DNA of 64,000 bases from Spirochaetia bacterium (GCA_965203905.1 CBDBDQ010000005.1:2144001-2208000), one strand, 5' to 3'; positions 13,337 to 24,354 are shown, numbered from the stretch's first letter. The notes: generated by a model from the sequence alone, not told the origin. A program made the numbers and translations.

Positions 13337-13407
13337 ACCGCGGTTGCCGGTGTCGCAAAGTGCCGTCACGATATAGGCAAGTTGTGGAGCGGTTCGAAGG
13401 TGATCAA

Positions 13408-13851
13408 GTGGCCGTGTCTCGGAGCGTGGCGGAGGCCGTGGCGTTCATCTTGGGCGGAGTCGCCGGCATCGGCCTGGAGGTACATTCGGATGCCGAATTG
13501 GCCGACGCCGTGGCTGCCGGCTTCGACGTGAAGGCGATCGACGCGCTCAAGCAGAGGGGCGTTACCGGTGCGGAAGTGAACTCTCTCATCATCAAGCCGC
13601 GTACCCTGTCGCACAGGCGGGCGAATGGAGGCAGGCTGACGGTCGATGAGTCCGATCGCGCCGCACGGGTGGCGCGGGGCCTGGTGCTCGCGGAGAGAAC
13701 CTTCGCCAACCGAGAAAAAGCAAGCCGCTGGATGCACCGAAATCTCGGCACGCTCGGCGGTCGCACGCCGATGGAACTGCTCCGCACGGATGCCGGCGCC
13801 CGCGCCGTCGAGAGTCTGCTGGCGCGAATCTCCTGGGGCGCGGCGGCCTGA
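13408..13851 (+). CDS. Xre/MbcA/ParS-type antitoxin (DUF2384), no RES toxin adjacent
   Basis: RTLSHRR...LTVDESDRAAR...A.RW...LGGRTPMELL.TDAGA..V..LL.RI..G pattern. Confidence 0.85.
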   Translation: MAVSRSVAEAVAFILGGVAGIGLEVHSDAELADAVAAGFDVKAIDALKQRGVTGAEVNSLIIKPRTLSHRRANGGRLTVDESDRAARVARGLVLAERTFANREKASRWMHRNLGTLGGRTPMELLRTDAGARAVESLLARISWGAAA

Positions 13852-13876
13852 TGTGCTTACCGAACGCCGTACAGCT

Positions 13877-14614
13877 CTACTCACCTATATTCGGCGGCTC
13901 ATCAATCATTTCGATCCAACTCAAGAGCTCATTCCTCCGGCTCTTCAATCGCTGCTTCACCTCGTCCCTAAAGTCATCCTCCCCAAGAGAGAGCCGACCA
14001 AGAGTGCTTCCAACATCATGCCACCAAGGAAGCAAGCTTGTCTGATCGAAAGAGTTCTCAATGTAACCTCGTAGCTTTCTGACGATACCTTTCAACTCAT
14101 CGTGAGCCTTCCAAGAGGCTTCTTTTGCCTTCTCTTTCTTCGTCTCGTCATCGTACGATACTGTTGAATGAATCTCATCATACGCCGGATCCAAGACTAT
14201 GACCATCGCCTTCAGCATGTCAATTACAATTGTTGAATTACTTTCAATACAGAACAAATGCTCTGATTGTCTGTCCACACGAGAAATTAGATCTGCCGAT
14301 TCACCAGTCCTCGCTACAACATCGTCGGAGGTCGTATCATACTTACTTCTTCGAGAATGCCACAACGTCCAAAAAAAGACACCAACAAAAATCAAGAACA
14401 GTGCGTCGAAGATTCGCTCTCCCCAGTCCAACTGGCTCACAAAAAGCAACAGACGAGCAATGAGCGACTTCCAAGCAGAAATGTCATCGGAGACGCTTGC
14501 TAATCCCAGAAGGTCAATAAGATTCTGGGCACGCGCAAGAATGCCCGAAGTTATGCCGCCGGATCCTGAAACCCATTGTAGTCTTCGCAGCCACTTTTTA
14601 CGGGCAGTTCGCAT
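13877..14614 (-). CDS. Hypothetical membrane protein
   Basis: 245-aa lower-GC ORF with hydrophobic segment IFDALFLIFVGVFFWTLW. Confidence 0.6.
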   Translation of the reverse strand: MRTARKKWLRRLQWVSGSGGITSGILARAQNLIDLLGLASVSDDISAWKSLIARLLLFVSQLDWGERIFDALFLIFVGVFFWTLWHSRRSKYDTTSDDVVARTGESADLISRVDRQSEHLFCIESNSTIVIDMLKAMVIVLDPAYDEIHSTVSYDDETKKEKAKEASWKAHDELKGIVRKLRGYIENSFDQTSLLPWWHDVGSTLGRLSLGEDDFRDEVKQRLKSRRNELLSWIEMIDEPPNIGE

Positions 14615-15022
14615 TCGGTAGCCTCAGAGAGCTCCTCTATCTGCGTTGATGCTCATATAGGAAGCCTTGTGGAGAGACAGAGACGACTACTCTCGTAGCA
14701 CCGGTACGTGATTCGCACGAACCGGCACAGAGACTGCCGGATTCAGCGTGTCGGTCTATTGAATGCAAAGGGAATACGCACATGTGCCATCATAGTGTCG
14801 TCAGCTCGGCACCACAGCGCGCGAGAGTATAGTCCATCGCCGATTGGTGGTTTCCGTGTAATACCGGCAATTAAGTCCGCGCAAGTGGCGAATCTAGGAA
14901 TCCGGCACCGCATGAGGTGAGACCTTGACCGTCCGTGATCTTGCCACTTGTGGCGTCGAAGTGTCGATAATCTGGAGAATCCGTTCTACTTATCCAATCC
15001 GTATACGGTTGAGTCCAAATGC

Positions 15023-16204
15023 TCATTTGCCGTTCTTCAACCTGAATGCGGAAACCACTTCCTGTTTAATCAATCCCCTATGACCCTTTCGTTTGGGTGC
15101 AAGCGTTCTACTTTGGATTCTGTCTTCGAATCGGTCGAACAAGCGAAAGTTCATACTCTCCAATATCTGGTTTAGTGCGTCCCATGTGAGGATTCTTCGT
15201 CCTCCCACAAGGTTATCGCCACAGACTAGTATTAGGGTGCCATCCGGCGCAAGTAAATCCTTAAACGAGAGGAATGCCATCTCCATATCCCGAAAATACC
15301 GATGGACAATAGCCGCACGTTTCATACATTGAATTTCAAGTTCTCTTAGTTGAGGAACCAGTTCTCTTCTATGCTTCGACTGTTCATCATAAACTAGAGA
15401 AGTACTAACACCTCGCTCTGTACCTATGAACTCCCGAATAATGCAGTCCACACGGAACGGCAACAAGCCCTCGAGCATGTAGAGCTCAAGTTTCGCGTTT
15501 CTAAAGTAATCCTGAGCATTGACGTACGGAGGGGAGGTGATGACATGTGAACACGTAAACGAATCCCTATGGGACCGCGCCGCATCAATGACACTGATGT
15601 GATGCACACTTGGGCCAACGTCTTGCGGGTCTCCGTAGAACCTCGAGAGTTCACTAAGGACGCTCTGAAGGACGATCATAGGATCAAAATGCTTCCCTTT
15701 TCGTACCCTCCGCGCTTCCTGTGAAATAAACGGCTTAGGGCTACGCTGGTCGGACCGTGAACACGGGCGGACGGAGAGCCCCATCGATAGGAGCACTCCA
15801 CGCCCCGCTGCCGTATCATTGAGTCCCATCTCCGACGCTACGAACCGGATCTGCTGGAACTTCCGTAGTGTGGCGGGTGTGAACCAATATCTCGCATTAC
15901 TCCAGGCTAGGGGCAGTTCTTTGCTCGAATGAGCGCGACATACGAGATCGTCGCAAAGCCGCCTTGCTTCGTCAGCGTCGAACCCCTCAATCTTTACCTG
16001 CGATAGGAGAACGCCAAACGGATTGATGTCCATCCCAGAGACCTTAAGGCTCTCTTTGCGGGCGGCGTAGAGTACCGCTCCGGATCCGCAAAACGGATCG
16101 ACCAAGTGGCTCGCATCACTAGCATACCGAGTGACGAGTGTTCGCGCGAGATGTGAAACCATCTTTCCTGGATAGCGGTCTATGCGCGCGGGTGGAGATG
16201 TCAT
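15023..16204 (-). CDS. DNA methyltransferase (amino-MTase, probably N4-cytosine)
   Basis: YPGKM, motif I DPFCGSG before motif IV TSPPY; ATGA overlap with the upstream gene. Confidence 0.88.
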   Translation of the reverse strand: MTSPPARIDRYPGKMVSHLARTLVTRYASDASHLVDPFCGSGAVLYAARKESLKVSGMDINPFGVLLSQVKIEGFDADEARRLCDDLVCRAHSSKELPLAWSNARYWFTPATLRKFQQIRFVASEMGLNDTAAGRGVLLSMGLSVRPCSRSDQRSPKPFISQEARRVRKGKHFDPMIVLQSVLSELSRFYGDPQDVGPSVHHISVIDAARSHRDSFTCSHVITSPPYVNAQDYFRNAKLELYMLEGLLPFRVDCIIREFIGTERGVSTSLVYDEQSKHRRELVPQLRELEIQCMKRAAIVHRYFRDMEMAFLSFKDLLAPDGTLILVCGDNLVGGRRILTWDALNQILESMNFRLFDRFEDRIQSRTLAPKRKGHRGLIKQEVVSAFRLKNGK

Positions 16205-17142
16205 TCTGGGCAAAAAATTATCCATCTGTTCCCAATACCGCGGGAATAGTAATGGAGATTATGTCGCAATACCTGCGAGTAGATCAAAGAAGGGGGGTCC
16301 GTACACTCGCGGATGTAGGTGTACGCTCCCACTGCTTGGGGCTTGGGTCCAAGGGGACACACGGCACGACGAAAGTCCGAATACACGCGGACATCACCCA
16401 AGACGCGACTCAGAACCCTAATCGTCGAACTAGGATCAATAGCATCAGCACGATCCACACAGGACTGGTCATCAATCGTAGCCACAAGGTTGCGATTGAG
16501 ACGTTCCGTTCGGCCCTTCCACTCAGGACGGAACGGCGGGTCTGGCACGATGAGCGTCGTGCGCTTCGGCTGGAGAATCTCATACGTTGAAAGTGCGCGG
16601 TCGCCTTCGTATCCCAAGAGCATCACAGCGTGAAGTGGCCGGCTCGGGTTGGCAGATGGAGCAAACCCCGGGAGCAGCGTCACGGATGACACGCCGAACG
16701 AAAGGGGCAATCGCCCTTTGATCTCATACTCTTCGGGTTCGCTGTATACTATCCAAAGACGATCCCAGAGTCCACAATCGTCAAGAAGTCGTAAAAGAAG
16801 GAGGAGAGTGCGTTTCGACATCACCGAGATATCCACAACTACCGGGCGACTTCCACTCTCTCGCAAGACGGATCGAAGAGGGCGGTGTCCATCGGCCGAT
16901 GTCTCCGTGATGCAACTCAAGGAAAGCTCCACGACCGGCGATCGCGCTTCTAACATGGATAGTAGCGTCATTCGATGCTCGTAACCCGAAGGTGTCTCCT
17001 CTTCGTACCCGAACAAAATGGTCTTCTTGGGAACCCAATCTTCACAATCTCCCAAGATCCCGAGACATCGCGGCTCGTGACTTGAGCACACCAACAGCAG
17101 GCAGTCCTGTGGAAGTAACTCTTGATCAAATACCGCCTTCAT
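16201..17142 (-). CDS. Hypothetical protein, possibly tandem CARF-like/Rossmann domains
   Basis: Two beta-loop-helix units (VVVDISVMSK, VCPLGPKPQAVG) and LLGYEGDR; coupled between ATPase and MTase; fold is inferred. Confidence 0.55.
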   Translation of the reverse strand: MKAVFDQELLPQDCLLLVCSSHEPRCLGILGDCEDWVPKKTILFGYEEETPSGYEHRMTLLSMLEARSPVVELSLSCITETSADGHRPLRSVLRESGSRPVVVDISVMSKRTLLLLLRLLDDCGLWDRLWIVYSEPEEYEIKGRLPLSFGVSSVTLLPGFAPSANPSRPLHAVMLLGYEGDRALSTYEILQPKRTTLIVPDPPFRPEWKGRTERLNRNLVATIDDQSCVDRADAIDPSSTIRVLSRVLGDVRVYSDFRRAVCPLGPKPQAVGAYTYIRECTDPPSLIYSQVLRHNLHYYSRGIGNRWIIFCPE

Positions 17143-17147
17143 AAGCC

Positions 17148-19284
17148 CTACGACCCATTCTCTCCAAATGGAAGTTGTGCACTGAGATCAGATCGGTGCC
17201 TACGTTGGGACCAACTTCCTACGAGAAGACTCTTTGTCGTCCTACGATTCTCTTTGTCCAACAGCCCCAACAACTGAGAGCACCCCACCGTAGTTCTCCA
17301 TCTCAATCGTGGACTGATCTCAAGTGTCGGCGCAAAAATACGTGAAATATTGATCTCCAGTGGCTGTGGATCTTCCACATGCTTTGGTCGTATACCCGAT
17401 CGTCCTTCAAGAACTTGAAAAACCCCTTCCTTAATCCCTATACCGATCATCTTTCTTAGCAACTCGTAGTCGCTCTCCAACAGCATCTGAGGATCTCTAA
17501 TGGCAAGGCGTGCCGCTTCAGGCTCGCTTGAGTGGTGAAGCAACTTTTGTCTAAGACAATCCCCTAAATCAAGCAGAAAATCCTTAAGCTTCTCACCATA
17601 CGTCTCTATATTCCGGCTAAGTGTTGCCAAATTATGTACCGACACGACATGAACAGCCTCCGATTGAAACTCCGGATCTATCGAGAAAAAATCACTCATC
17701 TCATTCGACTGCAAGTGATATGCCATGAGAAGGACCTCTTGAAAGTAGCGAATGACTCCAGAGCTAATAAATGCCAACTCCTTGTACCCAGAGAACCGCT
17801 TCTTTGTCCGCCTCCCAGGGCTACCATAGAGCTGTCGGTAAATTGCCGCCTCGCGATAGTAGGACAACTTCGCATCCTGAGTACGTACGTCCCAAGAATC
17901 AAACTCCCGCCGATCAATCCGAAGGAGCCGAAGTGTCTCTTCAACGACTTTCTCTCGGGGAATTTCGTCGTCACTGCTCTCTGGAAGAAGCCTCGCAAGC
18001 GTCGCTGGAGCGCCTTCTCGCGTTGTAAGAAGTTTTCCTACCATGTTCTCAAGGAGCCCGATGTATCGCTCGAAGTCAGAGTCATTCTCTACCGAGTAGA
18101 TCAGCGTCACCCTATTGTAATCATGCGTCTCCTGGAGCTCTTGTCCTTCGGTAGTGTCCGAGACTTCTTGACTCCCTATCTTTCGCGCTACTTTGACAGA
18201 GATCGTAGGCGGCCCGAGCTTAATGAGACTGTTGACCACAACTTTCTGATATGAAAGGAGGTTCTCATACTCATCTAACAGAATCGTGATTTGACTACGC
18301 GACAACGACCGAACATTCCTTCGAACTAGGTTTACGACCCGTCTAAAGGTCGCGAGTCCGAAGGACGCGAACGGAATGGAGGTAGCCTCATCGTAGATGA
18401 ACTTCCTGCGGACGAATTCCGCCAGTTTGAGGTGCATATCTGCGAAGTGCTCTAGCAGATCCTCAAAACGTTCAAGCGTGCTCTCGGTCTGTGGAGATAG
18501 AACACCGGCTATCGACCGTACCAATGTCCCCTCAGAACGGCTCCCGAGTTCTAGTCTATTGGCACGCGTGCAATGGGAGATCTCTGACACCATACTCTCA
18601 ACAACACCAAGATAGAATTCCTGAGCGAAGACATCAGTCAGTTGTGCGAGTGTCTTGGAGTCGAACGGTACCGAGAGATCGTCGACCTTAAGAGAGGTAC
18701 CAGCATTGCAGAAGGCACCCCGTTCAAGGCGAACGTAGCAACCAAAGAGCTGACGAAGAGTCTTCGGTGAATCCGAGCGAGCGGAAAGAATACGAGCCCT
18801 CAGAGATAGCAAAAGCATAGTCTTTCCGGTGCCACGGGAACCTTCAAGAAAACAAGGTTTCATCTCCTCGAGAACTCGTATCTTAGCTGCATCTGGCGGA
18901 GAGAATGATGAGGCCAACAGTGTTGGGTTATCCTCTTCAAAGTACTCGGCCCGAACCCGCCAGAAGGGGTTTAAGGAGTCCTCCTTTAGTGCTGCACTGA
19001 TAGTTGATGTGTCTGAGATTGTGTCAGAAATCTGAGAGCACAGTTGCTCGAGCGTATGTTGGTAGTGCTCATCGTCAACACTCCCATATACGTGGGTGCC
19101 TATAAGTGGAGGTAGCTGAACAGACCCATACTTGAGGACGATAACGCTTCCGCCATCTTGGCTGACACGATTCCATAACGCGGCGGATATCTCAAGTCTT
19201 TGCCAATTGGCGCCATGGGTGTTCTTTGAATAGATGACGATTATGGTGTGAGAATTGGCAATTGCTTCGTTCATAAATTCTATT
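17148..19284 (-). pseudogene. 3' part of TIR-domain + ORC/CDC6-like P-loop ATPase gene, interrupted by a mobile element
   Basis: TIR second half (IEFMNEAIANS..IIVIYSKN...WQRLEI); Walker A GSRGTGKT; Walker B ILLDEYEN. Confidence 0.85.
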
Positions 19285-19464
19285 GAACTAAACCGCTTCG
19301 CGGTAGGGGTGGCGTCGGCCGTGTCGAGGCGCGGAGCCCTTCCCAAACACAATCCCTACATGGTGTCTGGACTCTACTAACGGGAGATGGGTGGTTGCCC
19401 CCGGAGCGTAGCGCCGCTCCGGAGGCTGATGGACCACGCGTCTCTACACGAGGAGGAGTCCATC

Positions 19465-20307
19465 ATGACACCACTGCGCCAGAGAATGATCGAAGACATG
19501 CGGGTGCGCAACCTGTCCCCGCACACCATCGAATACTACGTCCGCCAGGTCGCGTTGTTTGCCCGCTACTTCAACCGCTCTCCGGAGCTGCTCGGGCTCG
19601 ACGAAATAAGGGCCTATCAACTGCACCTGGTGCAGGAGCGAGAGCTGGCTTGGGGTAGCTTCAATCAGGCAGTCTGCGCCCTCCGCTTCCTGTACCTCAA
19701 GACCCTCGGCAAGGACTGGCACATCGAGTCCATCCCGTTCGCCAAGCAGCCCAAGAAGCTGCCGCTGGTCCTGAGCCAGGACCAGGTACGCTCGCTACTC
19801 GAAGCGATCACCAACCCGCAGCACCGCGTCATCGCCATGACCCTGTATGCCGCCGGGCTGCGGGTTTCCGAGGCCGTCTCCCTGAGGGTCACAGACATCG
19901 ACAGCAAGCGGATGCTGCTGCATGTCGTGCAAGGCAAGGGCCGCAAGGATCGTTTGGTGACGTTGTCGCCGCTCCTGCTGTACCACTTGCGCTGCCACTA
20001 CCAACGCTATCGGCCGCGCTACTGGCTGTTTCCCAGCAGGACCTATCCCGACCGCCACATCACCAGGGACGCGGTGGCCAACGCCATCGCCGCGGTGCGC
20101 CACGTCGTCGCCGGCAAGCCCGTATCCCCGCATACCTTGCGCCACTGTTTCGCCACCCATCTGCTGGAATCCGGCACCGATCTGCGCACCGTCCAGGCGC
20201 TGCTCGGACACGCCTCGATCAGGAGCACCGTGATCTACACCCACGTCACCCGCAAGCGCATCAGCGCGGTCGAGAGCCCGCTGGAGTCGTTGCCACCGCT
20301 GCGCTGA
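19465..20307 (+). CDS. Tyrosine recombinase/integrase
   Basis: GAGGAG RBS; GLRVSE, GKGRK, HTLRHCFATH, LLGH and IYTH catalytic residues. Confidence 0.95.
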   Translation: MTPLRQRMIEDMRVRNLSPHTIEYYVRQVALFARYFNRSPELLGLDEIRAYQLHLVQERELAWGSFNQAVCALRFLYLKTLGKDWHIESIPFAKQPKKLPLVLSQDQVRSLLEAITNPQHRVIAMTLYAAGLRVSEAVSLRVTDIDSKRMLLHVVQGKGRKDRLVTLSPLLLYHLRCHYQRYRPRYWLFPSRTYPDRHITRDAVANAIAAVRHVVAGKPVSPHTLRHCFATHLLESGTDLRTVQALLGHASIRSTVIYTHVTRKRISAVESPLESLPPLR

Positions 20308-20314
20308 GCTCCCA

Positions 20315-21529
20315 GTGCAGCAGCCCCCGTTCGAGGTGGCCGACGTCATCCGTACCCTGGCTGCGGCCGATGGTCGGGTGCCGGGGTTGCGGGTGTCGCA
20401 GGCTCAACAGCGCGTCCTCGGCGACCTCGCAGCCTGTCGTACCGCCAAGCTTGGTGGCCACGTCGATGCCTGCGATGCCTGCGGTGAGCTACGCGTATCG
20501 TACAACTCCTGCGGCAATCGCCACTGTCCCAAGTGCCAGGCGCAGCAGCGCGCGAAGTGGCTCGAAAACCGTTGCCAAGATCTGCTGCCGGTCCCCTACT
20601 TCCACGTCGTTTTCACCCTGCCGGCAGAGCTGGCGCCGCTGGCACTGCAGAACCAACGCGAAATTTATGGCGCCCTGTTCGCTGCCGCCGCCGCTACCCT
20701 CAGGACCATCGCTGCCGACCCCAACCATCTCGGTGCTCAGATCGGCTTCATCGCCGTGTTGCACACCTGGGGTCAGACCCTGGTGCACCATCCCCATCTC
20801 CACTGCGTCATCCCGGGTGGCGGGTTATCCCCCGACGCTGCCTCCTGGATCTCCTGCCGTGACGATTTCTTCCTCCCGGTCCGGGTCCTCTCACACCTCT
20901 TTCGCGGCAAGATGCTGGCCGCGCTCCAGCAACGCTTCGCTGCCGGTCATCTCCACTTCCACGGTGCTGTTGCTGAGTTGGCAGATCCCGCTCGCTTCCG
21001 AACGTTGTGCCGGCAACTGCGCCGCAAACGGTGGGTGGTGTACTCCAAGCCGCCCTTCGGCGGGCCCCAGCAGGTGCTCAAGTACCTGGCTCGCTACACC
21101 CATCGTGTCGCCATCGCCAACCGCAGGATCACGGCTGCCGATTCGGACTCCGTGAGCTTCCGTTACCGCGACTATGCCCGTGGCCGCCGTCACCGGGTGC
21201 TGAAACTCGACACCGTGGAGTTTCTGCGTCGCTTTCTGCAGCACGTCTTGCCCAACCGTTTCGTCCGTATCCGCCACTACGGCTTTCTCGCCAATCGTGC
21301 ACGTAAGGAAAAACTTCCGCGGTGCCGCTATCTGATTGCCCAAGCCTCCGGCCAGGACCTGATCACTGCGCCTGATCTCTCAGTTTCTCTCGAACCTCCC
21401 GGCGACGATCATCAACGCTGTCCGGTGTGCCACGCAGGAACCATGCGCCGCATCCAGGACTTCTGCTCTCAACCCACCTGGGAGTATGAGTACCTGCCTG
21501 GTCGCCGCGCTCCCCCCGAGGCCGCATGA
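20315..21529 (+). CDS. IS91-family (Y2 HUH) transposase with N-terminal zinc-binding domain
   Basis: CDAC...SCGNRHCPKC, HVVFTLP, HTWG, HPHLH (HUH), YLARY and RIRHYG. Confidence 0.95.
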   Translation: MQQPPFEVADVIRTLAAADGRVPGLRVSQAQQRVLGDLAACRTAKLGGHVDACDACGELRVSYNSCGNRHCPKCQAQQRAKWLENRCQDLLPVPYFHVVFTLPAELAPLALQNQREIYGALFAAAAATLRTIAADPNHLGAQIGFIAVLHTWGQTLVHHPHLHCVIPGGGLSPDAASWISCRDDFFLPVRVLSHLFRGKMLAALQQRFAAGHLHFHGAVAELADPARFRTLCRQLRRKRWVVYSKPPFGGPQQVLKYLARYTHRVAIANRRITAADSDSVSFRYRDYARGRRHRVLKLDTVEFLRRFLQHVLPNRFVRIRHYGFLANRARKEKLPRCRYLIAQASGQDLITAPDLSVSLEPPGDDHQRCPVCHAGTMRRIQDFCSQPTWEYEYLPGRRAPPEAA

Positions 21530-21769
21530 CTCCATCTCCAGAACACCATCCGTTCGATCTCATCACGCATCCCTTCGCGCCGCCGTGCCGTTGCTCCTGC
21601 GCACCCGTGCGCGGCGCCGGCCGCGAGCTCCCCGTCAGCCGCTCGTCGCTGCCTCATCGCTTGGCGCTGTCACTCAGCTCCCCGTTCTGCTCCGCGAGCC
21701 CGCGCCTGCCCGGGCACCCCCAGCACTCCGCCGCCACCGGGATACCGGCGTTCCAATCTCCATAGGCGC

Positions 21770-21891
21770 GCGGTTTAGTTCAATCAACCCTATCCGAACT
21801 GGCCCCGGCCACGCGGCAACGGCCAGCGTTCGCCGTTCGCGCGGCCAGCTCGGATAGACTCCTTCTCATTTCGGATAGACTCCTTCTCATT
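21770..21891. repeat. Structured right end of the element: 15-bp inverted copy of the left end, 15-bp inner stem and 21-bp tandem duplication
   Basis: gcggtttagttcaat (21770-21784) is the reverse complement of 19282-19296; 21790-21804 pairs with 21843-21857; tcggatagactccttctcatt occurs twice (21850-21870, 21871-21891). Confidence 0.9.
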
Positions 21892-22019
21892 ATGTCGTGA
21901 CCGAACTTCAGTTCATGCAAATCGATGTAGACGTCATGACCTGCCATTCTCAAGTCATCATGGAGTCTCGTAGCAATCTCTGCGTCTTCGTCAGCGTGAG
22001 AGATGAAAATGTGCTTCAG
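21892..22019 (-). pseudogene. 5' part of the TIR-ATPase gene (TIR N-terminus)
   Basis: Translates as LKHIFISHADEDAEIATRLHDDLRMAGHDVYIDLHELKFGHDI, a typical TIR start; GAGGAG precedes a CTG codon; not in the ORF track. Confidence 0.85.
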
Positions 22020-22542
22020 TTTCTCGGGCTCCTCAGTCGTGTGATTTGAGTGTTGAACAGATCGCGGAAGGTGCGCGGATACTCCCTAAGTGCTAGGAAT
22101 CGTCTGCGAATCGTTCGGTTGTGGTGTCGAATCTCTGCAGTCGGCGATTCCTCCCTCCGGTTGGAACGGCACCATAGTGGCTGGCCTGGTACTGAAAGAG
22201 GTGTAATGGTCGCATCAGTTACACCCCGTAGGATTAGTGACCGATCTATGGAGTTGTCGGTGAAGCTATGGGAGAGGTTGAGATGAGCGTTATAGCTTGG
22301 TGCTCGTCCAGCATGTATTGGCAGGGTGCCAAACATCAGATTTCGTGAAGAACGTTAACTCGCAAGGATGTTGGTCTGCGTGCTTCCTCGCGCCAGTGCC
22401 GACCATGATCGGTGCAGTTCAAGCTTGATCTCCTCAATGGAGCGAGAGTCATAGACGTCAAGACTCTTCACCTTCGGTACATCACGGTCGCCAAGGGGTC
22501 ACGGACGAGGGACTCGCTGATGACACCGTAGCACGATTCTGA

Positions 22543-24354
22543 CTAGTGCGTCCCGGCGGCGTGGACGTATTCCAGGCTCTGGTGGCGGAAGTAGGTGTTG
22601 TACAGCTCCGCGTAGTGGCCGCCGGCCCGGAGCAGGCTGTCGTGGGAGCCCTCTTCGATGATGCTGCCGGCGCGCAGCACCACGATGCGGTCGGCCTGTC
22701 TGATGGTGGACAACCGATGCGCGATGACGATCGCGGTACGCTCGTTCAAAAGCTCGTCCAGACCCTCCTGGATCAGCGCCTCGGTAAGGGGATCGACGCT
22801 CGCGGTGGCCTCGTCGAGGATGATCACGGAGGGGTCCTGCAGCAGCACCCGTGCCAGCGCCACGAGCTGGCGCTGACCCAGTGACAGGTTGCGGCCGCGT
22901 TCGGCCACCTCGGTGCTCAGGCCGTCCGGGAGGGTGGCGATCCAGTCGCCGGCTCCCACCCGCTGCGCCGCCGCCGCCACAGCGTCGTCGTCGGCGTCGT
23001 TCCTGCCGTAGCGGATGTTGTCCAGCACGCTGCCGTTGAACAGGAACGGCACCTGGGTCACGAACCCGAGCTGGGAGCGAAAGCTGGCCAGATCCAGGGA
23101 GCGTACGTCGCGCCCGTCGACCAGGATCTGCCCGCCCTGGAATTCGTAGAAGCGCGCCACCAGCTTGGTGATGCTCGACTTGCCGGAGCCGGTGTGTCCC
23201 ACCAGTGCCAGCGTCTCGCCGGGGTGGACGCTGAGCGAGAAGTTCTCGAATACCTGCTCCCCCTCCTTGTAGTGGAAGGTGACGTTGCGTAGCTCGATGG
23301 CACCGCTCAGCTCCGCCACCGGTTCGGCACCGGTCTGCGTCACCTGGGGATCGGCGTCGATCAGCGCGAACACCCGCTCGCCGGCCGCCAGGCCGAGCTG
23401 GAACTGACTCCAGAAGGAGGCGATGGAGGTGAGCGGAAACCACAGCAGCCCGATCCCCTGTAGGAACAGGTACCAGTCGCCGATGGTCAGGCCGCCGTGC
23501 TCCGCGCGCAGCCCTCCGCTGTAGGCGAGGATCGCGGTACCCAGCCCGGAAACCGTGAACAGCACCGGGAAGATACTCGAGAACACCACCCCGGAACGCC
23601 AGCTCAGCCGGAACGACTGCCGGTTGACGCCCGTGAACTGCTCGTACAGGACCTGTTCCTTGCGGAACGACTTGGCGATGTTGATGCCGCTCACCGTCTC
23701 GTGCACGTGGGCGCTCACCTCCGCCACCGCGCGCCGCGACTGGGTGACCACGTCCCGCGCCAGACGCCGAAAGCCGAGTGCCACCCCGACTACCACCGGC
23801 ACCAGCGCCAGCGCGATCAGGGTCAGCATCGGGTCGACGGTGAACAGATAGGCGAAGATCAGCAGCACCATGGTGACCTGGCTGAACACTTCCATGGTGA
23901 GGGTCACCACTTCGGAGAACGCCTGGGTGTCGGCGGTCACCCGGCTCACGATGCTCCCGGTGGGATACTGGTCGTAGAACGACAGGTCGTGGCGCATCAG
24001 CGCATTGAAGGCGTCGCCGCGCAGGCGCAGCACGACGCTGCCGATGGCGCGGGCGCCGAGCAGGCGGCGCACCACGTTCAGCCCCCAGCTTCCCGCGTTC
24101 AGCAGCGCGATCGCTACCACAATGGCGGCGATGGTGCCGGAAGCGGCATCGGCGTCGGCCACCAGGTCGATGGCGCGCGACATCACTACCGGCAGCGCCG
24201 TGGTCAGCAGGGATCCGGCGGCCACCGCCAGCGACACGATCAGCATGCGCCGCCCCTCGGCGCGGAAGTAGGTGAAGATGCGGCCCACCAGCTCGCGGTC
24301 GCCGTAGGTGCGGTCGTACTCTTCGGCGGCGATGCCGTCCATGAGGAAGCCCAC
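22543..24354 (-). CDS. ABC exporter, fused permease/ATPase (heterodimer subunit)
   Basis: TM domain plus GHTGSGKS, LSLGQ and ILDEAT. Confidence 0.92.
   Translation of the reverse strand: MGFLMDGIAAEEYDRTYGDRELVGRIFTYFRAEGRRMLIVSLAVAAGSLLTTALPVVMSRAIDLVADADAASGTIAAIVVAIALLNAGSWGLNVVRRLLGARAIGSVVLRLRGDAFNALMRHDLSFYDQYPTGSIVSRVTADTQAFSEVVTLTMEVFSQVTMVLLIFAYLFTVDPMLTLIALALVPVVVGVALGFRRLARDVVTQSRRAVAEVSAHVHETVSGINIAKSFRKEQVLYEQFTGVNRQSFRLSWRSGVVFSSIFPVLFTVSGLGTAILAYSGGLRAEHGGLTIGDWYLFLQGIGLLWFPLTSIASFWSQFQLGLAAGERVFALIDADPQVTQTGAEPVAELSGAIELRNVTFHYKEGEQVFENFSLSVHPGETLALVGHTGSGKSSITKLVARFYEFQGGQILVDGRDVRSLDLASFRSQLGFVTQVPFLFNGSVLDNIRYGRNDADDDAVAAAAQRVGAGDWIATLPDGLSTEVAERGRNLSLGQRQLVALARVLLQDPSVIILDEATASVDPLTEALIQEGLDELLNERTAIVIAHRLSTIRQADRIVVLRAGSIIEEGSHDSLLRAGGHYAELYNTYFRHQSLEYVHAAGTH

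What the first reader, a model, noticed from the sequence alone, without database searches (positions are those of the whole stretch)
15023..22019. Candidate undescribed defence operon: TIR-ORC/CDC6-like ATPase + CARF-like protein + DNA methyltransferase
Seen: three co-oriented, coupled genes (5-bp gap, then ATGA overlap) in a lower-GC island. The reconstituted first gene is ~754 aa, with a complete TIR domain (FISHA...; putative catalytic Glu in WQRLEI), Walker A GSRGTGKT and Walker B LLDEYEN. The second has two DISxxxK/PLGxK-type units. The third is an SPPY methyltransferase with no recognisable restriction nuclease. Known: TIR domains are NADase or signalling effectors in Thoeris, CBASS and NLR-like systems; STAND-type ATPases act as sensors; MTases mark self DNA. 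Inference: a methylation-gated, ATPase-activated TIR system that matches no named system I recognise.
Basis: partly seen in the sequence, partly recalled or inferred. Interest (0 to 1): 0.8.

Follow-up and report, generated by a model that had tools for sequence, protein, structure and literature searches.

The report
IS-broken TIR-ATPase, tandem-CARF, methylase defence cassette
A horizontally acquired island carries one copy, broken by a jumping gene, of a widespread but never tested three-gene cassette (TIR-ATPase, double CARF nucleotide sensor, DNA methylase) that is most likely an anti-virus system.

Summary
Three coupled minus-strand genes lie in an 8.7-kb low-GC island that same-genus genomes lack.

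- **Gene A** is a TIR + ORC/Cdc6-like AAA+ ATPase (Pfam PF24389). An IS91-family element splits it, and it starts with CTG where homologues have ATG.
- **Gene B** is a tandem CARF protein (PADLOC "CARF6"; fold match to Can1, Z 14.4).
- **Gene C** is a DNA methylase with an SPPY motif.

The A→B→C order is kept in 33 of 37 related loci across many bacterial and archaeal phyla. A sister form (21 loci) replaces the fused TIR with a separate PRTase-CE gene and uses a different methylase family. In 9 of 12 loci examined, the flanks hold known defence genes. A complex prediction supports A–B binding (0.70; best control 0.01).

No named system matches. However, the parts are already catalogued in Pfam and PADLOC, and this scan met the same cassette family on three other genomes. 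It is therefore a TIR variant of a catalogued, untested cassette, and this copy is probably dead.

The mechanism is inferred: methylation marks self DNA, an ATPase–CARF complex acts as the switch, and the TIR is a NAD-consuming effector. Three papers likely to describe the family were not held and could not be read.

The parts
13854..22549 (.). Low-GC genomic island carrying the cassette
   Evidence: GC is 0.49-0.58 inside and 0.65-0.72 outside. Same-genus genomes match the left flank up to window 13853 and the right flank from about 22549. In G007 the two flanks lie about 555 bp apart, and in G004 about 2 kb apart.
21890..22019 (-). Gene A, N-terminal fragment: the first 43 codons of the TIR domain plus part of a split codon. 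It starts with CTG at 22019.
   Evidence: Translation reads LKHIFISHADEDAEIATRLHDDLRMAGHDVYIDLHELKFGHDI. Homologues start MKHIFISHA at the same position.
22029..22034 (-). GAGGAG Shine-Dalgarno-like motif, 9 nt upstream of the CTG
   Evidence: Read from the sequence. Function inferred.
19283..21889 (+). IS91-family insertion sequence. The ends are uncertain by 1-3 nt. It includes a 21-nt tandem copy of its right end (21850-21870 and 21871-21891).
   Evidence: Other copies in the same genome, 91% identical, match window 19282/19285..21868/21869. The tandem repeat is D3 and a 15-nt inverted repeat is I5.
19387..20307 (+). Tyrosine recombinase gene of the IS
   Evidence: Pfam Phage_integrase 3e-36 and Phage_int_SAM_4 4e-22.
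20315..21529 (+). Y2 (IS91-type) transposase gene of the IS
   Evidence: Pfam Y2_Tnp 3e-67 and Zn_Tnp_IS91 2e-30.
17148..19280 (-). Gene A, C-terminal fragment (710 codons): the rest of the TIR domain with the catalytic-type Glu, then the ORC/Cdc6-like AAA+ ATPase with Walker A and B motifs and a helical, winged-helix-like C-terminal part
   Evidence: Pfam ORC-CDC6-like 1.6e-55 (189 bits, cut-off 27) and TIR_2 1.5e-5. A profile search of solved structures hits only TIR proteins. The best Foldseek matches to the AF2 model are RdrA, Cdc6/Orc1, BrxC and TnsC.
16201..17142 (-). Gene B: stand-alone tandem CARF protein (CARF6 family), 313 aa
   Evidence: PADLOC CARF6 PDLC01917 4.6e-22 and no Pfam hit. 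AF2 model pLDDT 92.6. VIA-align gives Can1 6sce Z 14.4, rmsd 3.6, 233 residues aligned over both halves. The next 15 rows are all CARF proteins.
15023..16204 (-). Gene C: DNA methyltransferase, 393 aa. Motif I DPFCGSG is near the N-terminus and TSPPY is at residues 223-227.
   Evidence: Pfam N6_N4_Mtase 6e-8 and MethyltransfD12 2e-6. PADLOC MTase_II PDLC03362 1.3e-24. Invariant motifs in 27 of 27 sequences.
13877..14614 (-). ORF of 245 aa with one predicted membrane segment. It is island cargo of unknown function and not part of the conserved cassette.
   Evidence: No homologue in the 69 related loci. No Pfam hit above cut-off and no PADLOC hit. The atlas search gave only sub-threshold hits.

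Best explanation
The region is a horizontally acquired island carrying one copy of a widespread conflict (anti-virus or anti-plasmid) cassette with four modules in three genes:
- an N-terminal TIR effector fused to an ORC/Cdc6-like AAA+ ATPase (A);
- a stand-alone tandem-CARF ligand sensor (B);
- a DNA methyltransferase (C).

Proposed working of intact copies (inferred):
1. C methylates the host's own DNA at a short motif and so marks self.
2. A and B form a complex. B sits on a helical insert of the AAA+ core.
3. The complex is the sensor and switch. Foreign DNA lacking the mark, together with a nucleotide-type ligand in the CARF pocket, drives ATP-dependent assembly of A.
4. Assembly brings the TIR domains together. 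They then cleave NAD+ (or make an NAD-derived product) and stop growth of the infected cell.

In sister cassettes the same ATPase-CARF core drives a separate PRTase-CE effector instead.

In this genome the system is most probably dead. An IS91-family element sits after codon 44 inside the TIR domain, and the conserved start codon reads CTG. B and C remain intact.
For: Shown here:
- Domain identities.
- An invariant TIR Glu, Walker A and Walker B in 27 of 27 sequences.
- A->B->C order kept in 33 of 37 TIR-form loci from Planctomycetota, Verrucomicrobiota, Acidobacteriota, Nitrospirota, Latescibacterota, Betaproteobacteria, Methanoregula and others.
- The ATPase-CARF core also occurs in 18 of 21 sister loci. 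There it has a separate PRTase-CE gene, homologous to the retron type III-A effector (PADLOC 7.7e-46). A different methylase family (N6_Mtase) is present in 14 of the 21 sister loci. Swapped effectors on a constant core are typical of immune cassettes.
- Flanks of 12 TIR-form loci: 33 of 107 ORFs hit PADLOC models at E<=1e-10, in 9 of the 12 loci. The hits include type I, II and III R-M, BREX, Shango, Avs4, ThsB, AbiE and AbiL.
- Patchy distribution: the B family occurs in 9 of 61 related genomes, counting the window's own.
- The island is missing from same-genus genomes at this site.
- Complex prediction of A(100-710) with B: median score 0.70, best of 3 controls 0.01. That mark was reached by 116 of 157 solved complexes and 2 of 215 mismatched pairs. 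The runs agree in at least 50% of contacts and the partner pLDDT is at least 79. No solved complex of this kind was found by sequence.
- Inactivation: IS ends are defined by two other copies, and contigs of two public runs cross both junctions.
- A same-genus genome (G009) has an intact copy of 747+311+395 aa with an ATG start.
Against: - Nothing here is experimental. NADase activity, DNA methylation, the methylated base and phage protection are all untested.
- The cassette encodes no cyclase or other signal maker, so the CARF ligand is unknown.
- The methylase family differs between the TIR and PRTase forms. It is replaced by an HhH-GPD glycosylase in 2 loci and not seen in 3 others (L043, L054, L076). 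A strict self-marking role would make such losses autotoxic.
- The ATPase model is only moderate (pLDDT 72.7), and its Foldseek matches are weak (best E 3e-4).
- The defence-island count had no matched control.
- Some gene splits in MAG-derived loci may be assembly errors.
- CTG could still initiate weakly, and the IS could in principle excise.
Confidence: 0.6

Rival explanations
1. Methylome-derived danger signal. The methylase does not protect self DNA from the sensor. Instead it writes a private mark into the chromosome. When a phage degrades host DNA, methylated mono- or oligonucleotides are released. These bind the tandem-CARF pocket and switch on the ATPase-TIR effector.
For: - A CARF sensor without any linked cyclase and a methylase without any nuclease are both explained at once.
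- No Cas10 (Csm1 or Cmr2) scores above its cut-off in this 98.7%-complete genome.
- A precedent exists in a preprint: m6-dAMP from degraded Dam-methylated DNA activates PUA-Cal-HAD (10.64898/2026.01.15.699771; abstract and passages read).
- Losing or replacing the methylase in some loci would not be lethal under this model.
Against: - The CARF motif residues are conserved across the TIR and PRTase forms. D104 and G177 are invariant; E23, R25, E179, R182 and G265 are nearly so, in 49 sequences. Yet the two forms use different methylase families, probably writing different marks.
- No ligand was tested.
- The glycosylase variants fit only loosely.
Confidence: 0.2
2. Addiction module. The cassette mainly stabilises the mobile island that carries it. 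The methylase is the antidote and the TIR-ATPase the poison, which kills cells that lose the island, as proposed for some R-M systems.
For: - The cassette is horizontally mobile and patchy.
- The poison-like gene A is disrupted in 7 of 37 related loci, by an ISL3 element, other inserts, splits, a truncation or a deletion. B and C mostly stay intact there, as they do in this window.
Against: - Cassettes sit among bona fide defence genes in 9 of 12 loci.
- Here the island carries no plasmid or phage genes besides the IS.
- Addiction and defence are not exclusive.
Confidence: 0.1
3. Accessory arm of cyclic-oligoadenylate signalling. B senses cOA made in trans by a type III CRISPR or CBASS-like cyclase elsewhere in the cell and passes the signal to the ATPase-TIR.
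For: B has the CARF fold. Its closest solved relatives all bind cOA: Can1, Csm6, Cam1, Can2 and Card1. PADLOC files CARF6 among the CRISPR-associated CARF models.
Against: - No Csm1 or Cmr2 scores above its cut-off in the own genome.
- No cas10, csm or cmr hit appears among 107 flanking ORFs of 12 loci at E<=1e-10.
- The constant partners are an ATPase and a methylase, not cas genes.
Confidence: 0.05
4. Not immunity. An ORC/Cdc6-like initiator plus methylase could serve replication or regulation of a mobile element.
For: ORC/Cdc6-type ATPases bind origins, and the methylase could time initiation (established knowledge; not tested here).
Against: - The fused TIR and the swapped PRTase-CE effectors point elsewhere.
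- So does the defence-island context.
- No replication or partition genes lie in the island.
Confidence: 0.03

Closest known systems
PRTase-CE / ORC-CDC6-like / CARF6 / N6-methylase cassette. It is catalogued through Pfam PF24390 and PF24389 and the PADLOC CARF6 models, but I found no system name and no experiments.
   Same: Same ATPase family (PF24389). Same stand-alone tandem-CARF family immediately downstream. A DNA methylase in the operon. Tight gene coupling.
   Different: Here the effector is a TIR domain fused to the ATPase, not a separate PRTase-CE gene. The methylase has motif I at the N-terminus and TSPPY, rather than being a PF02384 N6_Mtase. The papers that probably define these families were not held, so whether they already show the TIR form is unknown.
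Can1 (PDB 6sce), a type III CRISPR ancillary nuclease with two CARF domains in one chain
   Same: Both CARF halves of B superpose on the two CARF domains of Can1 (Z 14.4, rmsd 3.6, 233 residues, 13% identity). B therefore forms an intramolecular pseudo-dimer pocket.
   Different: B has no nuclease or other effector domain. It is not linked to cas genes, and no cyclase is at hand.
BREX
   Same: An ORC/Cdc6-clade ATPase (BrxC is Foldseek rank 5, E 9e-4) works with a DNA methylase and without a recognisable nuclease (passages of PMC12839542).
   Different: No PglZ, BrxL, BrxA or BrxB. No Brx or Pgl PADLOC hit for A, B or C. BREX has no TIR and no CARF.
STAND/NLR-type TIR defence proteins (Avs, bNACHT, TIR-STAND) and RADAR RdrA
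   Same: An N-terminal effector is fused to an oligomerising P-loop switch of the ORC/Cdc6-STAND assemblage. RdrA is the best Foldseek match (E 3e-4) and the plant NLR RPP1 is also listed.
   Different: There is no NACHT or NB-ARC Pfam hit and no repeat-type C-terminal sensor. An obligatory CARF partner and a methylase are present.
Thoeris
   Same: It uses a bacterial TIR domain of the same broad family. The ThsB_TIR Pfam hit is 0.0014, below its cut-off.
   Different: No ThsA (SIR2 or Macro-SLOG) and no ThsA or ThsB PADLOC hit. Here the TIR is fused to an ATPase.
PUA-Cal-HAD (preprint 10.64898/2026.01.15.699771)
   Same: It is a working analogy only: a nucleotide-binding sensor triggered by methylated nucleotides from degraded host DNA.
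   Different: The folds are unrelated. That system relies on the host Dam methylase and has no methylase of its own.

Membership tests
ORC-CDC6-like/CARF6/methylase cassette (Pfam PF24389 context) | ATPase matches PF24389 above the gathering score | tested here: met
   189.4 bits against a cut-off of 27, E 1.6e-55.
ORC-CDC6-like/CARF6/methylase cassette (Pfam PF24389 context) | Intact Walker A and Walker B motifs | tested here: met
   GSRGTGK and LLDEYEN are invariant in 27 of 27 sequences.
ORC-CDC6-like/CARF6/methylase cassette (Pfam PF24389 context) | Stand-alone CARF6-family protein encoded directly downstream of the ATPase | tested here: met
   PADLOC CARF6 4.6e-22. 5-nt gap. Same arrangement in 33 of 37 TIR-form and 18 of 21 PRTase-form loci.
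ORC-CDC6-like/CARF6/methylase cassette (Pfam PF24389 context) | DNA methylase in the operon | tested here: met
   Gene C overlaps B by ATGA. It hits MTase models. It belongs to a different methylase family from the PRTase form.
ORC-CDC6-like/CARF6/methylase cassette (Pfam PF24389 context) | Separate PRTase-CE (PF24390) effector gene upstream | tested here: not met
   The upstream region has no such gene. A TIR domain fused to the ATPase takes its place.
CARF superfamily | Rossmann-like CARF fold with ligand motifs after strands 1 and 4 | tested here: met
   The top 16 VIA-align rows are CARF proteins, Z 8.5-14.4. The D104-I-S-x-x-x-K motif and its second-half counterpart are conserved.
Type III CRISPR CARF ancillary effectors | CARF fused to an effector domain and linked to a cas10 locus | tested here: not met
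   The 313 aa consist of two CARF halves only. No Csm1 or Cmr2 scores above its cut-off in the own genome. No cas10, csm or cmr hit appears in 107 flanking ORFs of 12 loci.
TIR NADase domains | TIR fold with the conserved catalytic-type Glu | tested here: met
   The A1 profile hits TIR proteins 7uxr (8e-9) and AbTIR 8g83 (3e-6). The Glu in W-Q-x-x-E is invariant. That this Glu is the catalytic one is recalled from TIR literature and rests on no call. In the window the domain is physically split by the IS.
TIR NADase domains | NAD+ cleavage activity | not testable with these tools
   Needs a biochemical assay.
Thoeris | ThsA (SIR2 or Macro with SLOG) next to ThsB | tested here: not met
   No ThsA or ThsB PADLOC hit for A, B or C. 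ThsB_TIR Pfam scores 19.5 bits, below the 21.2 cut-off.
BREX | PglZ, BrxC and PglX core | tested here: not met
   No Brx or Pgl PADLOC hits for A, B or C. There is only fold-level likeness to the BrxC ATPase.
MADS | mad1-mad8 gene set | tested here: not met
   Only weak hits: mad8 at 5.6e-5 for A and mad2 at 2.3e-4 for C. No other mad genes.
Type II restriction-modification | Cognate restriction endonuclease beside the methylase | tested here: inconclusive
   No nuclease family hits in Pfam or PADLOC. None appears among the fold matches of the A model. The C-terminal 300 aa of A were not folded alone.
STAND (NACHT/NB-ARC) NTPases | NACHT or NB-ARC core with a C-terminal repeat sensor | tested here: inconclusive
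   No NACHT or NB-ARC hit for the window protein. Weak NACHT hits occur in relatives. RPP1 is at Foldseek rank 21, E 2.6e-3.

The most novel reading that the evidence does not exclude
The cassette is a cyclase-free CARF pathway in which the cell's own methylome is the store of the signal. The dedicated methylase writes a private mark. Phage-induced breakdown of host DNA frees marked nucleotides. The tandem CARF protein, bound to a helical insert of the ORC/Cdc6-like ATPase, reads them and fires a swappable effector (TIR, PRTase-CE, or a membrane protein according to an earlier scan note). That would be a new input logic for CARF domains and a new use of a DNA methylase in immunity.
Probability: 0.2. 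Interest if true: 0.85.

Novelty: new variant of a known kind. Interest (0 to 1): 0.55.

Why it matters
The cassette is large and old.
- The CARF partner family has 4316 cluster representatives at E<=1e-3 and 645 at E<=1e-30.
- The TIR-ATPase has at least 245 homologues among the 8000 candidates scored.
- It spans bacteria and archaea.

I found no experiment on it in the searches I could run. It also joins parts that are not supposed to stand alone: a CARF sensor without a cyclase, and a methylase without a nuclease. Working out its trigger would test whether CARF domains read signals other than cyclic oligoadenylates, and how methylation can gate an abortive-infection effector.

The predicted ATPase-CARF interface gives concrete residues to mutate. 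This window's copy is broken, so its main value is as a pointer. Intact copies exist in cultured strains (the records behind L020 and L022) and in a same-genus genome (G009).

Tried and rejected
**Literature**
- Terms included CARF6, ORC-CDC6-like, PRTase-CE, and combinations of Cdc6, CARF, TIR, methyltransferase, PRTase, 'conflict systems', 'defense island' and 'tandem CARF'.
- No held paper describes this cassette. This covers only the held library.
- Three papers that may describe it were not held:
  - Makarova et al. 2020, NAR (PMC7498327).
  - Burroughs et al. 2015, NAR (PMC4678834).
  - Nicastro et al. 2023, NAR (PMC10681802). I recall this one as the source of the '-CE' effector names.
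- Passages read in PMC10853773, PMC12839542, PMC8195603, PMC7159879, PMC5512222, PMC4012209, PMC12669027, PMC11229360, PMC13712802 and bioRxiv 10.64898/2026.10.19.760177 mention other ORC/Cdc6 systems but not this one.

**Searches that gave nothing useful**
- The NCBIfam scan failed on a bad coordinate and was not repeated.
- Sequence search of solved structures found nothing for the methylase, nothing meaningful for B, and only TIR for A.
- The promoter and terminator scan was not above shuffles: 7 promoter-like sites against 4.8±2.4, and 4 terminator-like against 7.5±2.3.
- No tRNA lies next to the island.
- The 245-aa island ORF gave no family, and atlas hits were below 0.9.
- The N-terminal ~210 aa of the ATPases in L042 and L044, and the first 150 aa in L043, gave no Pfam or PADLOC family.

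**Sequencing runs**
- No RNA holder was listed.
- Contigs of X1 and X2 (one study; possibly the source sample) cross both IS junctions.
- No IS-free joint was seen. Contigs drop rare variants, so this does not show absence.

**Rejected readings**
- Thoeris, BREX, MADS, type III CRISPR accessory, and a classical R-M system (see the membership tests).

Full report
**What is there**

On the minus strand, three tightly coupled genes lie in a stretch of 49-55% GC, inside a genome of 65-72% GC.
- Gene C (15023..16204) is a DNA methyltransferase.
- Gene B (16201..17142) is a 313-aa protein with no Pfam family.
- Gene A ends at 17148.
- The TAG of A is followed by 5 nt and then the ATG of B.
- The TGA of B overlaps the ATG of C as ATGA.

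Gene A is split.
- Its C-terminal 710 codons run from 19280 to 17148.
- Its first 43 codons (LKHIFISHA...KFGHDI) lie at 22019..21891.
- Between the two fragments sits an insertion sequence.

**The insertion**

The element carries a tyrosine recombinase (19387-20307) and a Y2 (IS91-type) transposase (20315-21529).
- Two other full copies in the same genome are 91% identical. They match window 19282/19285 to 21868/21869 and so fix the ends to within a few bases.
- The right-end 21 nt are present twice in tandem (21850-21870 and 21871-21891).
- Once the element and this repeat are set aside, one codon is split and the frame continues.
- The restored protein would have 754 residues, the same length through the junction as its homologues.
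- The insertion is therefore clean and probably recent.
- Contigs of two public runs from one study cross both junctions. No element-free joint was seen, although contigs would miss a rare one.

A second defect concerns the start codon.
- At the conserved start position, where homologues read M-K-H-I-F-I-S-H-A, this gene has CTG.
- A GAGGAG motif lies 9 nt upstream.
- No ATG, GTG or TTG occurs before the upstream in-frame stop.

**The island**

Same-genus genomes match the left flank up to window 13853 and the right flank from about 22549.
- In G007 the two flanks lie about 555 bp apart, and in G004 about 2 kb apart.
- About 8.7 kb (13854-22549) is therefore an insertion.
- It holds the cassette, the IS and one unrelated 245-aa membrane-type ORF.
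- The genome has one copy of the cassette.
- A different, intact copy sits at another place in the same-genus genome G009. It is 747+311+395 aa with an ATG start, about 63-67% identical at the DNA level.

**The proteins**

*Protein A*
- It matches Pfam ORC-CDC6-like (PF24389) at 1.6e-55, and TIR_2 weakly because the domain is truncated in the ORF.
- A profile of 27 homologues hits only bacterial and animal TIR domains among solved structures, for example 7uxr at 8e-9 and AbTIR at 3e-6.
- The Glu of W-Q-x-x-E, Walker A (GSRGTGK) and Walker B (LLDEYEN) are invariant in all 27 sequences.
- An AlphaFold model of the 710-aa part is moderate (pLDDT 72.7).
- Its best Foldseek matches are RdrA of RADAR, archaeal Cdc6/Orc1, BrxC of BREX, ORC subunits and TnsC. 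The E-values are weak (3e-4 and above) but the set is coherent.

*Protein B*
- It hits ten PADLOC 'CARF6' models, the best at 4.6e-22.
- Its model is confident (pLDDT 92.6, pTM 0.92; 49-sequence alignment).
- An all-against-representatives structural search puts Can1, a two-CARF protein, first: Z 14.4, rmsd 3.6, 233 residues aligned across both halves.
- The next 15 rows are all CARF proteins: Csm6, Cam1, Can2, Card1, Csa3 and others.
- The two halves carry equivalent motifs: S-x-E-x-R and D-I-S-x-x-x-K in the first, G-x-E-x-x-R and P-L-G-x-K-P in the second.
- D104 and G177 are invariant, and E23, R25, E179, R182 and G265 nearly so.
- B is therefore a stand-alone tandem CARF with no effector domain.

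*Protein C*
- It has motif I (DPFCGSG) near the N-terminus and TSPPY at residues 223-227, both invariant in 27 of 27 sequences.
- It hits N6_N4_Mtase, D12-class and PADLOC MTase_II models.
- From recalled motif rules, SPPY suggests N4-cytosine methylation. No call tested this.

**Conservation and variants**

Homologues of A are numerous: 245 at E<=1e-3 among the 8000 candidates scored. Typical members are 750-760 aa with TIR_2 plus PF24389.

A scan of one genome per species returned 69 loci. I scored their ORFs with the window proteins and with profiles built from the loci.

*The TIR-form group*
- Thirty-seven loci (L008-L044) belong to this group, and 33 of them have A->B->C in order.
- The four exceptions are:
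  - L021, a truncated A next to a type I R-M system;
  - L033, where the contig ends;
  - L035, where the N-part of A is fused to C;
  - L043, which has no methylase.
- The group spans Planctomycetota, Verrucomicrobiota, Acidobacteriota, Nitrospirales, Latescibacterota, Betaproteobacteria, Hydrogenedentota, Brocadiia, Methanoregula and Thaumarchaeota, as named in the record titles.

*The sister form*
- Twenty-one loci (L045-L062, L065, L069, L076) form this group.
- A separate PRTase-CE gene (PF24390) precedes a TIR-less ORC-CDC6-like ATPase.
- In 18 of the 21 loci a CARF6 protein follows the ATPase.
- In 14 of the 21 loci there is a PF02384 N6_Mtase, downstream or upstream.
- In L045 and L048 an HhH-GPD/EndoIII-type glycosylase stands in place of the methylase.
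- The PRTase is homologous to the retron type III-A effector (PADLOC 7.7e-46).
- The sister CARF proteins hit CARF6 models at up to 3e-93.

*The rest*
- The remaining 11 loci are weak P-loop matches and were set aside.

The core is thus the ATPase plus tandem CARF. Effectors are swappable and a DNA-modifying enzyme is linked.

**Context**

I scanned the flanks of 12 of the 16 TIR-form loci that had full 8-kb flanks. A size limit dropped the other four.
- 33 of 107 ORFs hit PADLOC models at E<=1e-10, in 9 of the 12 loci.
- The hits include type I, II and III R-M, BREX, Shango, Avs4, ThsB, AbiE, AbiL and candidate systems.
- Three loci had none.
- No matched control was run.

Gene A is disrupted in 7 of the 37 loci:
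- an ISL3 transposase in L026;
- other inserts in L029 and L034;
- split frames in L025 and L040;
- a truncation in L021;
- a deletion in L035.

Some of these may be assembly errors in MAGs.

The distribution is patchy.
- The B family occurs in 9 of 61 related genomes including the own one, and in none of the 37 genomes from other families of the order.
- In a library of 1.84 billion cluster representatives, the B profile finds 4316 proteins at E<=1e-3, 2767 at 1e-10 and 645 at 1e-30. The best 150 listed are nearly all stand-alone proteins of about 310-340 aa.

**Do A and B bind?**

A complex prediction of A (residues 100-710 of the fragment) with B gave a median score of 0.70, against 0.01 for the best of three controls.
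- That mark was reached by 116 of 157 solved complexes and 2 of 215 mismatched pairs.
- The runs agree in at least 50% of contacts, and the partner pLDDT is at least 79.
- The counts hold only roughly, because I used my own alignments.
- The interface joins B residues 81-90, 118-122, 153-168, 254 and 281-285 to A residues 181-195, 221-233 and 273-297.
- Those A residues form a helical insert between Walker A and Walker B.
- No similar solved complex was found by sequence, so recall from memory is unlikely.
- This supports binding but does not show it.

**How it most likely works**

*Shown:*
- the parts and their coupling;
- conservation and effector swaps;
- the defence neighbourhood;
- a supported A-B interface.

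*Inferred:*
- The methylase marks self DNA.
- The ATPase-CARF complex senses foreign DNA and/or a nucleotide ligand.
- ATP-dependent assembly brings the TIR domains together.
- The TIR domains deplete NAD+ or make a signal, and the infected cell stops growing.

I hold this at about 0.6.

The main rival, at about 0.2, turns the methylase into the writer of a danger signal. Methylated nucleotides freed from degraded host DNA would be read by the CARF pocket, as a preprint reports for m6-dAMP and PUA-Cal-HAD.
- It explains the missing cyclase and the missing nuclease in one stroke.
- It also tolerates loss of the methylase.
- Against it, the CARF motifs are conserved across forms that use different methylase families.

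A link to type III CRISPR signalling is unlikely.
- No Csm1 or Cmr2 scores above its cut-off in this 98.7%-complete genome.
- No cas10, csm or cmr hit appears among the 107 flanking ORFs.

**Known or new**

No PADLOC system model fits A, B and C together, and ten literature searches found no description in the held library. The parts are nonetheless catalogued:
- A has a dedicated Pfam family.
- The sister effector has the next accession number.
- B is the 'CARF6' family.

Three papers that probably introduced these families were not held, so I cannot say whether the TIR form is already drawn there. This scan has met the same cassette family on three other genomes: a PRTase form, a membrane-protein form and a degenerate TIR form. 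Those are unchecked AI notes, apart from what I re-tested here.

I file this as a TIR-fused variant of a catalogued, untested cassette. In this genome it is inactivated by an IS.

Noticed in passing
window 13360-13848 (+): An Xre/MbcA/ParS-type antitoxin ORF (Xre_MbcA_ParS_C 1.2e-14, Xre-like-HTH 1.2e-10) ends exactly at the left border of the island. No toxin gene follows it. The island may have replaced or displaced its partner toxin. In G007 about 555 bp lie between the flanks, and G001 lacks the antitoxin part too.
   Followed up: partly
window 21850-21891 (+); G000:C5 5298994-5305378, 5308731-5311319, 6312263-6314849: The IS91-family element, which has an extra tyrosine recombinase gene, carries a perfect 21-nt tandem duplication of its right end at this site only. 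The genome holds two more full copies at 91% identity and two half-copies on the opposite strand, about 4 kb apart.
   Followed up: partly
window 22017-22019 (-): The conserved start codon position of the TIR-ATPase gene reads CTG where 25 of the 26 aligned homologues have Met (P0002 begins further in), with a GAGGAG motif 9 nt upstream. This is either a rare CTG start or a second inactivating change.
   Followed up: partly
window 13877-14614 (-): A 245-aa ORF with one hydrophobic segment lies 408 nt downstream of the methylase inside the island. It has no family and no counterpart in the 69 related loci.
   Followed up: partly
L045:4091-4981 and L048:6981-7619: In two PRTase-form cassettes an HhH-GPD/EndoIII-type DNA glycosylase with an Fe-S motif occupies the place of the methylase.
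   Followed up: no
L026:9174-10805, L029:8654-9501, L034:9422-10774, L013:10048-11490, L035:7818-9638: The ATPase gene or its junction with the CARF gene is hit repeatedly by insertions or deletions in other genomes. L026 has an ISL3 transposase. L013 has a UPF0236-type ORF between A and B. L029 and L034 have unidentified inserts. L035 has an in-frame fusion of the N-part of A to the methylase.
   Followed up: partly
L013:6511-7743, L015:6504-7760, L024:6615-7736: In three Latescibacterota loci a type I R-M specificity subunit gene lies directly upstream of the TIR-ATPase gene. An HsdM-type methylase lies further upstream in two of them.
   Followed up: no
L081:7187-9745 (-) (G009): In the same-genus genome with an intact cassette, an 853-aa ORF beginning with an NPPY-containing stretch abuts the start of the TIR-ATPase gene. 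It is possibly a second methylase or a type IIG-like enzyme.
   Followed up: no
L076:9106-10413 (-): A thymidylate-synthase-like gene (Thymidylat_synt 8.9e-32) lies convergent to a PRTase-form cassette that has no methylase.
   Followed up: no
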